Positions 41,005 through 41,681 of a stretch of 64,000 bases of DNA are shown one piece after another; position 1 is the first letter of the stretch; the number at the start of each line of letters is the position of its first letter. A model generated the notes under the pieces. The model searched no databases. It saw only the letters and a list, made by a program, of their open reading frames with translations, and was not told the origin of the DNA. The translations under genes were made by a program, and so were the position numbers. Source of the DNA: a virus; IMG/VR virus record IMGVR_UViG_3300008952_002488, positions 64,001 to 128,000 of that record. The stretch is one strand, 5' to 3'.

Positions 41005-41643
41005 ATGTTACGAGTCTTAGGAAAATTACCGAGAGAATTAGGAGTCGCTGTCAGCGGCGGACCAGACTCCATGGCAATTCTAGACTTTCTCAGCAACAAC
41101 CATGAGGTAACCGCAGTCTATTTTGACCACGGCACAGACTTCGGACGAAAATGTAAAAGATTTGTAAAGAACTTTTGCGATAATAGAGATATTCCTCTTG
41201 TTGTAGGTATTAATTATAATGGGTGTCCTCCGAAAAAATCGCTTGAAGAGCATTGGCGTGATGAACGCTATAAGTTCTTTCACAGTTTCGACATGGCTAT
41301 TGTTTCGGGTCACAACTTAGACGATGTGATTGAGTGGTTTTTATTCTCTTCTTTGCACGGACAGGGTAAACTTATGCCCTACAAGAATCAAAACGTTTAT
41401 AGACCGTTTATCTCCACCTCTAAACGCTCGCTAGAAGATTGGTGCGAACGTAAGGATGTGCCGTTTATGATTGACCCAGGGAATACCGATAGAAAGTTTA
41501 TGAGAAGCATTATCAGAAACGATATTATGCCTCATGCTCGCAAGGTAAATAAAGGGCTCGAAAAAACATTTAAAAAACTTGTAGAAAAGGAATATAATAA
41601 CTGTGGGGGATTAGCTCAATTGGTCAGAGCACTCGACTCATAA
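41005..41643 (+). CDS. tilS: tRNA(Ile)-lysidine synthetase (short form)
   Basis: AVSGGPDSMA PP-loop, FDHG, R.ERY.F, GHNLDD..E, RP.I, DPGN....MR..IR; last 39 nt overlap the tRNA-CAU. Confidence 0.9.
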   Translation: MLRVLGKLPRELGVAVSGGPDSMAILDFLSNNHEVTAVYFDHGTDFGRKCKRFVKNFCDNRDIPLVVGINYNGCPPKKSLEEHWRDERYKFFHSFDMAIVSGHNLDDVIEWFLFSSLHGQGKLMPYKNQNVYRPFISTSKRSLEDWCERKDVPFMIDPGNTDRKFMRSIIRNDIMPHARKVNKGLEKTFKKLVEKEYNNCGGLAQLVRALDS

Positions 41644-41681
41644 TCGATAGGTTCTGGGTTCAAGTCCCAGGTCCCCTACCA
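41605..41681 (+). tRNA. tRNA-Ile2(CAU), lysidine-modified (Met less likely)
   Basis: CGA-CTCATAA-TCG anticodon arm resembling E. coli Ile2, A discriminator, CCA; adjacent to tilS. Confidence 0.85.

What the first reader, a model, noticed from the sequence alone, without database searches (positions are those of the whole stretch)
41005..41681. tilS stop codon lies inside the anticodon loop of its own substrate tRNA
Seen: the tilS frame has no stop before the tRNA(CAU). It reads 39 nt into it (...YNNC-GGLAQLVRALDS) and ends at TAA 41641-41643, whose T is the third base of the CAT anticodon (41639-41641). Established: RNase P cuts at the tRNA 5' end (41605), and TilS modifies C34 of tRNA-Ile2. 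Inference: making the tRNA leaves a non-stop tilS mRNA, a substrate for tmRNA tagging, and this genome encodes its own tmRNA and ClpP. Conversely, translating ribosomes would unfold the tRNA. Enzyme and substrate production would be mutually exclusive per transcript, which could act as feedback control.
Basis: partly seen in the sequence, partly recalled or inferred. Interest (0 to 1): 0.8.

Follow-up and report, generated by a model that had tools for sequence, protein, structure and literature searches.

The report
Phage tilS runs into its tRNA
In this uncultured marine T4-like phage, a minimal lysidine-synthase gene (tilS) has lost its own stop codon and ends 39 bases inside the neighbouring tRNA-Ile2 gene; the overlap is real and has arisen several times, but it is rare and not conserved, so it looks like a tolerated accident of a very compact tRNA operon rather than an evolved control switch.

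Summary
ORF 41005-41643 (212 aa) is a TilS made of the catalytic domain only. It has no stop before tRNA(CAU) 41605-41681 and ends at TAA 41641-41643, whose T is the third anticodon base. The tRNA is an Ile2 type. The overlap is not an assembly error: an independent ENA contig (L023) carries the same junction.

The overlap is not conserved. Most close relatives stop 0 nt (TAA abutting tRNA base 1) or 10-11 nt before the tRNA. Of 120 homologue cluster representatives, three carry a tRNA-encoded tail.

Read-in has arisen at least five times:
- by 39 nt in three separate lineages (window/L023, L226, L068)
- by 23 nt (L028)
- by 15 nt (L030)

The stop in the anticodon loop is automatic, because U36-A37-A38 spells UAA.

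What is conserved is the linkage. tilS sits inside tRNA arrays, 9-13 nt after an upstream tRNA, and directly next to a tRNA(CAU) in many independent lineages.

A sigma-70-like promoter (TTTAAA-N18-TATAAT, ending at 41598) puts the canonical +1 on tRNA base 1, so the tRNA may not depend on the tilS transcript.

The proposed feedback function is unsupported. The scan noted the same arrangement in another genome (e1-5411313).

The parts
40839..40914 (+). tRNA-Gly(GCC), first tRNA of the array
   Evidence: ARAGORN; Rfam tRNA 69.7 bits
40918..40994 (+). tRNA-Arg(UCU); its 3' end lies 10 nt before the tilS ATG
   Evidence: ARAGORN; Rfam 70 bits. A 9-13-nt spacing from an upstream tRNA (Arg, Val, Lys or Glu) to the tilS start recurs in relatives
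40995..40999 (+). Shine-Dalgarno-like AGGGG, 5 nt before the ATG and directly after the tRNA-Arg CCA end
   Evidence: read from the sequence, (inference)
41005..41643 (+). tilS ORF, 212 aa plus stop, catalytic PP-loop domain only. Residues 1-199 are homologous to relatives. Residues 201-212 (41605-41640) are encoded by the 5' half of the tRNA
   Evidence: TIGR02432 106.7 bits > 93.6; PF01171. Matches only the N-domains of solved TilS structures: 1wy5 25-228/317, 3a2k 23-226/464, 1ni5 13-198/433. SGGPDS motif and 61 invariant columns kept
41569..41598 (+). Sigma-70-like promoter inside the tilS 3' end: TTTAAA-N18 (or TTAAAA-N17)-TATAAT, with -10 at 41593-41598. The canonical +1 is 41605, which is tRNA base 1
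   Evidence: 10 of 12 match. Only 2% of 60-nt windows of this genome hold such a site. Hexamers are kept in 8 aligned relatives. Function untested
41605..41681 (+). tRNA-Ile2-type tRNA(CAU). Anticodon 41639-41641; the tilS stop TAA 41641-41643 is U36-A37-A38
   Evidence: ARAGORN; Rfam 64.7 bits. Best E. coli match is a PGAP 'tRNA-Ile' with a CAT anticodon and the identical anticodon arm CGACTCATAATCG. 16 of 20 stem pairs show compensatory change
41683..41758 (+). tRNA-Thr(UGU)
   Evidence: ARAGORN; Rfam 68 bits
41762..41836 (+). tRNA-Gly(UCC), last tRNA of the array
   Evidence: ARAGORN; Rfam 62.6 bits
54098..54423 (+). Phage tmRNA (context for the non-stop argument), with an 11/12 promoter at 54059-54087
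   Evidence: ARAGORN; RF00023 79.5 bits; promoter scan

Best explanation
tilS here is a short mRNA segment wedged into a phage tRNA operon: tRNA-Gly, tRNA-Arg, tilS, tRNA-Ile2(CAU), tRNA-Thr, tRNA-Gly. It encodes a TilS made of the catalytic domain only. This enzyme presumably converts C34 of the adjacent phage tRNA(CAU) to lysidine, so that the phage's frequent AUA codons can be read. In this lineage the tilS-tRNA junction is 10-14 nt shorter than in its nearest relatives. The stop codon and spacer are gone, so translation continues 39 nt into the tRNA gene. It ends at the first in-frame stop, the UAA that every U36-A37-A38 anticodon loop contains. The extra 12 residues fall on a C-terminal tail that varies freely in length and sequence across the family. 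The overlap is therefore best read as a tolerated, recurrent, short-lived stop-loss variant, not a selected regulatory device. Likely consequences (inferred, not shown): only co-transcripts not yet cut by RNase P yield full-length TilS; cut ones become non-stop mRNAs handled by tmRNA; and TilS output per transcript falls, which is acceptable for a catalytic enzyme. The tRNA can probably also be made from a promoter inside the tilS 3' end.
For: Gene identities: TilS N-domain only; Ile2-type, structurally constrained tRNA.

The junction is real: the same AATAACTGT|GGGG junction occurs in the independent contig L023. P0123 carries the same tail.

It is not conserved:
- L005, L008, L009, L021 and L173 end ...YNLLY TAA with the tRNA starting at the next base.
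- L006/L026, L007/L136, L027 and L032 stop 10-11 nt before the tRNA.
- Three of 120 homologue representatives carry a tRNA-derived tail.

It is recurrent. The overlap is 39 nt in the window/L023, in L226 (tail GPVAQLVRASNS, where the relatives' stop position reads as a sense codon) and in the 43%-identical L068. It is 23 nt in L028 and 15 nt in L030. On the TilS tree the four overlap rows need four changes, and the window and L023 are not sisters. The block 41491-41670 is 98-100% identical between them, against 68-85% for the rest of tilS.

The C-terminal tails vary widely.

Linkage with the substrate: CAU is the direct neighbour in 6 of 8 independent TilS lineages that have any adjacent tRNA, against 15 of 142 among non-adjacent tRNAs.

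ATA makes up 28% of Ile codons, 17.4 per 1000.

Promoter.
Against: - Five or more independent origins of read-in could also mean that overlap is favoured.
- The most abundant allele class puts the stop codon flush against tRNA base 1. This suggests that pressure to keep the tilS 3' end at the RNase P site is itself selected.
- The same 98-100% identical junction block sits in two otherwise diverged phages. This could reflect spread of a useful allele rather than neutral recombination.
- No expression data exist. Co-transcription, RNase P timing and promoter activity are all inferred.
- Activity of a TilS lacking its C-terminal tRNA-binding domains is unproven.
Confidence: 0.65

Rival explanations
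1. One reading: the overlap is a selected cis-coupling device. RNase P maturation of tRNA-Ile2 severs tilS from its stop codon, so TilS from cut transcripts is tmRNA-tagged and degraded (phage tmRNA, ClpP). Ribosomes finishing tilS keep the tRNA unfolded. Enzyme and substrate output are thereby balanced.
For: - The geometry is exactly as described.
- tmRNA and a ClpP-family gene are present.
- Overlap or zero-spacer junctions recur in several lineages.
- tilS-tRNA(CAU) adjacency is conserved across deep divergence.
Against: - Most relatives have an ordinary stop 0-49 nt upstream.
- Overlap alleles are rare tips on the tree.
- The frame, and therefore the extent of overlap (15, 23 or 39 nt), differs between origins.
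- A promoter-like site can make the tRNA independently of tilS.
- No SmpB is found on the contig.
- Nothing senses TilS or tRNA levels, so 'feedback' has no identified input.
Confidence: 0.15
2. The selected feature is the promoter-to-tRNA spacing. Shortening the junction placed tRNA base G1 exactly at the canonical +1 of the TATAAT promoter, giving a leaderless tRNA that needs no RNase P. Loss of the tilS stop is a by-product.
For: - The -10 hexamer ends at 41598 and six bases follow, so +1 is G41605.
- Relatives keep the hexamers but with 12-20 nt between the -10 and the tRNA.
- The tmRNA gene also has a promoter 10 nt upstream.
Against: - The -35 element is weak (4 of 6).
- The hexamers lie in codons for conserved residues (TFKK...EYN), so their conservation is confounded with protein constraint.
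- The other overlap lineages (L226, L028, L030) keep 18-19 nt between the -10 and the tRNA.
- There are no transcript data.
Confidence: 0.1
3. Normal termination is restored by a low-level -1 ribosomal slip at A-AAG (41586-41589). The -1 frame reads GGA ATA TAA TAA and ends before the tRNA.
For: The sequence shows A-AAG followed in the -1 frame by a double stop at 41595-41600. A-AAG is a known slip-prone site in E. coli (own knowledge).
Against: - There is no full heptamer and no stimulatory structure or internal Shine-Dalgarno at the right distance.
- The same -1 frame stops exist in relatives that have an ordinary in-frame stop, so they follow simply from the EYN codons.
Confidence: 0.04
4. 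Assembly or sequencing artefact: a spurious indel near AATATAATAA hides the true stop.
For: A 1-nt shift would bring TAATAA into frame.
Against: - The identical junction occurs in an independent assembly from another sample whose tilS body is only 68-85% identical.
- A further contig's product, P0123, carries the same tail.
- Other overlap junctions of different sequence exist.
Confidence: 0.02

Closest known systems
Virus-encoded TilS with viral tRNA(CAU): chloroviruses (PMC7589089), Pseudomonas jumbo phages PA5oct/MIJ3 (PMC6892783) and the conserved lysidine-type tRNA-Ile(CAU) of T4-like phages (PMC1524935)
   Same: A virus with AUA-rich genes carries tRNA-Ile2 and/or a lysidine synthase. 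The PA5oct-group TilS is about 200 aa and 39.5% identical to this one.
   Different: In PA5oct and in the 634-642-kb uncultured phages no tRNA is found within 1.5 kb of tilS on either side. Here tilS is embedded in the tRNA array next to its substrate, and in this allele it overlaps it. None of the six passage look-ups in five papers, nor the titles and abstracts listed by the four full-text searches, mentions such an overlap.
E. coli secG-leuU and similar mRNA-tRNA co-transcripts separated by RNase P (Nishiyama & Tokuda 2005; Mohanty & Kushner 2008, PMC2241853; both cited in PMC2190699)
   Same: An mRNA whose 3' end is created by RNase P cleavage at the 5' end of a downstream tRNA.
   Different: There the ORF stops before the tRNA (own knowledge, not checked). 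Here the stop lies inside the tRNA, so cleavage would leave a non-stop message.
T4 tRNA region (8 tRNAs, RNAC and RNAD, and small ORFs such as segB between sub-clusters)
   Same: A T4-type phage tRNA operon with protein-coding inserts and structured RNAs.
   Different: The insert here is the modification enzyme for the neighbouring tRNA, not a homing endonuclease.
Mitochondrial tRNA punctuation with abutting or overlapping genes and stop codons completed or defined by processing (own knowledge)
   Same: tRNA excision defines mRNA ends. Stops abut or overlap tRNA genes. The commonest allele class in this phage family has TAA flush against tRNA base 1.
   Different: This is a bacterial-type system with tmRNA rescue and no polyadenylation-completed stops.
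Genes that borrow a stop codon from an adjacent tRNA, noted elsewhere in this scan (e1-872497, a GIY-YIG cassette; e1-5411313, tilS/tRNA-CAU in another genome)
   Same: The ORF has no stop of its own and ends inside the tRNA gene.
   Different: These are unchecked AI notes. The first is a mobile nuclease, not the tRNA's own modification enzyme.

Membership tests
TilS (tRNA(Ile)-lysidine synthetase) | N-terminal PP-loop ATP-pyrophosphatase domain with an SGGxDS motif, scoring over the curated TIGR02432 cut-off | tested here: met
   106.7 bits against a cut-off of 93.6; PF01171 E = 4.5e-29; SGGPDS invariant in 32 aligned relatives
TilS (tRNA(Ile)-lysidine synthetase) | C-terminal tRNA-binding domain(s) (CTD1/CTD2 of bacterial TilS) | tested here: not met
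   The protein is 212 aa. It aligns only to residues 25-228 of 317 (1wy5), 23-226 of 464 (3a2k) and 13-198 of 433 (1ni5). The full-length model NF007942 scores 45.8 bits against a cut-off of 606. The whole phage family is 195-225 aa.
TilS (tRNA(Ile)-lysidine synthetase) | Lysidine formation at C34 of tRNA-Ile2 | not testable with these tools
   Needs an enzyme assay or tRNA mass spectrometry
tRNA-Ile2 (lysidine type, anticodon CAU) | CAU anticodon on an Ile-like rather than Met-like or initiator body | tested here: met
   The listed top E. coli matches (H56-H61) are annotated tRNA-Ile; the one read has a CAT anticodon and the identical anticodon arm. Positions 1:72 are paired (G-U) and there is no GGG/CCC anticodon stem, so it is not an initiator. 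U12-A23, C29-G41 and A73 are present; their role as Ile identity elements is from own knowledge.
tRNA-Ile2 (lysidine type, anticodon CAU) | Functional cloverleaf under selection | tested here: met
   Rfam 64.7 bits. 16 of 20 pairs show compensatory change in 11 relatives.
Conserved overlapping-gene regulatory element | The overlap is retained across related genomes | tested here: not met
   Among 22 distinct loci with tRNA(CAU) within 60 nt downstream of tilS, the spacer ranges from -39 to +49 nt. Five loci overlap, five abut and twelve are spaced. Three of 120 representatives carry a tRNA-derived tail.
trans-translation system (tmRNA-SmpB) encoded by the phage | tmRNA gene and SmpB gene | tested here: inconclusive
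   tmRNA is present. SmpB was not found in the 172-kb contig, which is estimated to be 60% complete. Host SmpB may serve.
Sigma-70 promoter for the tRNA | -35 and -10 hexamers with 16-18-nt spacing, upstream of the RNA 5' end, and active | tested here: inconclusive
   The sequence match is 10 of 12 with +1 at tRNA G1. Such sites are enriched in relatives. Activity was not tested.

The most novel reading that the evidence does not exclude
The tilS-tRNA(CAU) junction is a selected 'substrate-punctuated' expression module. In this phage family the 3' end of tilS mRNA is deliberately defined by RNase P cleavage at its own substrate tRNA, with the stop flush against, or inside, the tRNA. TilS yield per transcript is then set by the race between translation and tRNA maturation, and the phage tmRNA clears the non-stop products. 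In the strongest form, TilS binding to the embedded anticodon loop, which contains its own stop codon, would autoregulate termination. That would be a 3'-end counterpart of the thrS tRNA-mimic operator.
Probability: 0.12. Interest if true: 0.7.

Novelty: new variant of a known kind. Interest (0 to 1): 0.35.

Why it matters
The result offers a natural test of what happens when an ORF's stop codon lies beyond an RNase P site. It provides a set of natural alleles (overlap of 39, 23 or 15 nt, flush, or spaced by 10 nt) that could be compared directly for TilS yield, tmRNA tagging and tRNA output.

More solidly, it documents three things:
- Marine T4-like phages carry a TilS made of the catalytic domain only.
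- This gene is embedded in tRNA operons.
- It is kept next to tRNA(CAU) across deep divergence, a gene-neighbourhood argument that this minimal enzyme really acts on the phage tRNA.

For annotation, it warns that tilS ORFs with ...AQLVRA... tails are read-ins to a tRNA, and that these tRNA(CAU) genes are Ile, not Met.

As a regulatory discovery it is weak, because the overlap itself is rare and unconserved.

Tried and rejected
- **DNA search against isolated phages.** The DNA-level search found only generic tRNA matches and no close relative.
- **PA5oct group and 634-642-kb uncultured phages.** They have a homologous short TilS but no tRNA within 1.5 kb on either side, so they say nothing about the junction.
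- **Promoter scan window.** The scan window began downstream of the -35 hexamer for the 39-nt overlap loci, so 'none' for L004, L023 and L068 is a windowing effect. One search shows the site in the window.
- **Careful maximum-likelihood tree.** It did not finish in 300 s. Only the quick tree (SH-aLRT support) is used, and only for the coarse statement that the overlap rows are scattered.
- **P0127 (tail ...EKEYGQLV).** No DNA could be fetched, so its overlap is inferred from the protein tail only.
- **Literature searches.** The listed results of the four full-text searches mention neither a tilS-tRNA overlap nor a phage tmRNA link to it.
- **Not attempted.** I ran no structure prediction and no complex prediction, because neither would change the verdict.

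Full report
**What is there.** The window is bases 64001-128000 of a 171,926-bp IMG/VR viral contig, about 60% complete and 43% G+C. Earlier notes of this scan describe it as an uncultured marine T4-like phage.

On the + strand lies a compact RNA operon:
- tRNA-Gly(GCC) 40839-40914
- tRNA-Arg(UCU) 40918-40994
- an ORF from ATG 41005 to TAA 41641-41643
- tRNA(CAU) 41605-41681
- tRNA-Thr(UGU) 41683-41758
- tRNA-Gly(UCC) 41762-41836

The ORF (212 aa) has no in-frame stop before the tRNA. It reads ...EKEYNNC, then GGLAQLVRALDS from tRNA bases 1-36, and stops at TAA. The T of this TAA is the third anticodon base.

**Identity of the two genes.**
- The ORF passes the curated cut-off of TIGR02432, the TilS N-domain model (106.7 bits against 93.6), and matches PF01171.
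- Against solved structures it aligns only to the N-terminal catalytic domain of TilS: 1wy5 residues 25-228 of 317, 3a2k 23-226 of 464, and 1ni5 13-198 of 433.
- The whole phage family is 195-225 aa. This is a TilS made of the catalytic domain only, without the C-terminal tRNA-binding domains.
- The tRNA's listed top matches in E. coli genomes (H56-H61) are genes annotated tRNA-Ile. The one I read has a CAT anticodon and the same anticodon arm, CGACTCATAATCG.
- Positions 1:72 are paired and the initiator-type anticodon stem is absent.
- 16 of 20 stem pairs show compensatory changes among 11 relatives. It is a functional Ile2-type tRNA.
- T4-like phages are known to conserve such tRNAs (PMC1524935).
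- ATA makes up 28% of Ile codons in this phage (17.4 per 1000). All five phage tRNAs read A- or C/U-ending codons that are common in the phage.

**Is the overlap real?** Yes. An independent ENA contig (L023, sample ERZ27251199) has the same junction, AATAACTGT|GGGG..., and the same tRNA-encoded tail. A further contig product, P0123, has it too. Across tilS the two phages are only 68-85% identical in DNA. The block 41491-41670, which covers the tilS 3' end and the tRNA, is 98-100% identical. On the TilS tree the two are not sisters. The junction allele therefore seems to have moved by recombination.

**Is it conserved?** No. In the nearest relatives (74-88% protein identity) tilS ends in one of two ways:
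- ...YNLLY TAA, with the tRNA starting at the very next base (L005, L008, L009, L021, L173)
- ...YNN(I) TAA/TGA, followed by a 10-11-nt spacer (L006/L026, L007/L136, L027, L032)

The window's junction is 8-14 nt shorter than these, which removes both the stop and the spacer. Of the 120 best homologue cluster representatives, three have a tRNA-derived tail, and the flush-stop LLY type dominates in member counts.

Among 22 distinct loci with a tRNA(CAU) within 60 nt downstream, the spacing ranges from -39 to +49 nt.

**Read-in is recurrent.**
- L226/P0121...NNIEKEY|GPVAQLVRASNS, where the relatives' stop position reads as a sense codon, on a different tRNA sequence.
- L068: only 43% identical...KLY|GPLVQLVRTSGS.
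- L028: overlap of 23 nt.
- L030: overlap of 15 nt.

That makes at least five origins, each a tip. This scan also noted the same arrangement in another genome (e1-5411313; I did not check it).

**Why the stop sits in the anticodon loop.** A tRNA that reads an A-starting codon has U36-A37, and usually A38, which spells UAA. A frame entering the tRNA in phase with base 1 must stop there, unless the D-arm stops it earlier, as happens in L030. The coincidence with the anticodon needs no further explanation. The tRNA acts as a back-up terminator.

**What is conserved instead.**
1. tilS starts 9-13 nt after an upstream tRNA, whichever tRNA that is: Arg, Val, Lys or Glu.
2. tilS is directly next to a tRNA(CAU), downstream or upstream, in 6 of the 8 independent lineages (under 60% identity) that were retrieved through TilS and have any adjacent tRNA. 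By contrast, CAU makes up 15 of 142 non-adjacent tRNAs in the same loci. This enzyme-substrate linkage is the firmest comparative result.

**A promoter inside the tilS 3' end.**
- TTTAAA-N18-TATAAT (or TTAAAA-N17) ends at 41598. With the canonical six-base gap, +1 falls on G41605, which is tRNA base 1.
- Only 2% of 60-nt windows of this genome hold a site this good.
- Sites of 10/12 or better occur around the tilS stop in 28 of 80 relatives, against 4 of 160 control windows inside tilS. Perfect TTGACA-N16/17-TATAAT sites lie 13-24 nt upstream of tRNA(CAU) in distant lineages.
- The tmRNA gene likewise has an 11/12 promoter 10 nt upstream.
- The hexamers lie in conserved codons (TFKK...EYN), so conservation alone does not prove function. 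Activity is untested.

**Mechanism: shown and inferred.**

*Shown:* the geometry, the gene identities, the variation among relatives and the promoter-like sequence.

*Inferred:*
- The array is co-transcribed, since the spacers are 1-10 nt and no terminator-like site lies between tilS and the tRNA.
- RNase P cuts between 41604 and 41605.
- tilS mRNA cut in this way lacks a stop, so ribosomes on it would be rescued by tmRNA. The phage copy is at 54098-54423. No SmpB is found on the contig.
- Tagged TilS would then be degraded. A ClpP-family ORF is present.
- Ribosomes terminating at 41641 would cover the 5' half of the tRNA, so translation and folding alternate on a given transcript. They do not strictly exclude each other.

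**Verdict.** The second criterion, that the tRNA has its own promoter, is plausible. I read the overlap as a tolerated stop-loss in an ultra-compact operon, falling on a freely variable C-terminal tail (confidence 0.65). The selected-coupling model stays possible (0.15), mainly because flush and overlapping junctions are so frequent in this family. Virus-encoded TilS and tRNA-Ile2 are already known (PMC7589089, PMC6892783, PMC1524935). The listed results of my searches, and the passages I read, describe neither the embedding next to the substrate nor the overlap.

Noticed in passing
window 54059-54087 and 54098-54423: An 11/12 sigma-70-type promoter (TTGACA-N17-TATAGT) ends 10 nt before the phage tmRNA gene, so the tmRNA appears to have its own promoter placed close to its mature 5' end.
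   Followed up: partly
window 41491-41670 vs L023: This block (tilS 3' end plus tRNA-Ile2) is 98-100% identical to L023, while the rest of tilS is 68-85% identical. This indicates mosaicism or recombination at the tRNA array between related phages.
   Followed up: partly
L023:923-999: In this contig the tRNA(CAU) has A5 opposite C69, a broken acceptor-stem pair. It is the only broken pair among 11 relatives.
   Followed up: no
L044, L065, L056, L071 (metagenome loci): In a distant TilS lineage the tRNA(CAU) lies 10-22 nt upstream of tilS instead of downstream. The linkage is kept but the order is reversed.
   Followed up: partly
L057, L059, L062: Another short-TilS lineage (39-43% identity) has tRNA-Leu(UAA), not tRNA(CAU), 14 nt downstream of tilS, with a -10-like hexamer flush against that tRNA.
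   Followed up: no
window 41586-41600: The -1 frame after the slip-prone A-AAG reads GGA ATA TAA TAA: an AUA codon followed by a double stop, just before the tRNA. This is probably a by-product of the EYN codons, because relatives with normal stops have it too.
   Followed up: partly
L005, L008, L009, L021, L173: The commonest allele class has the tilS TAA stop flush against tRNA base 1, so RNase P would leave an mRNA that ends exactly in its stop codon.
   Followed up: partly
window 41862-42179: Two small ORFs (42 and 65 aa; the first read from the in-frame ATG at 41862 within the 61-aa frame listed) follow the last tRNA after 25 nt, on the same strand and with no terminator-like site. They are probably part of the same transcript.
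   Followed up: no
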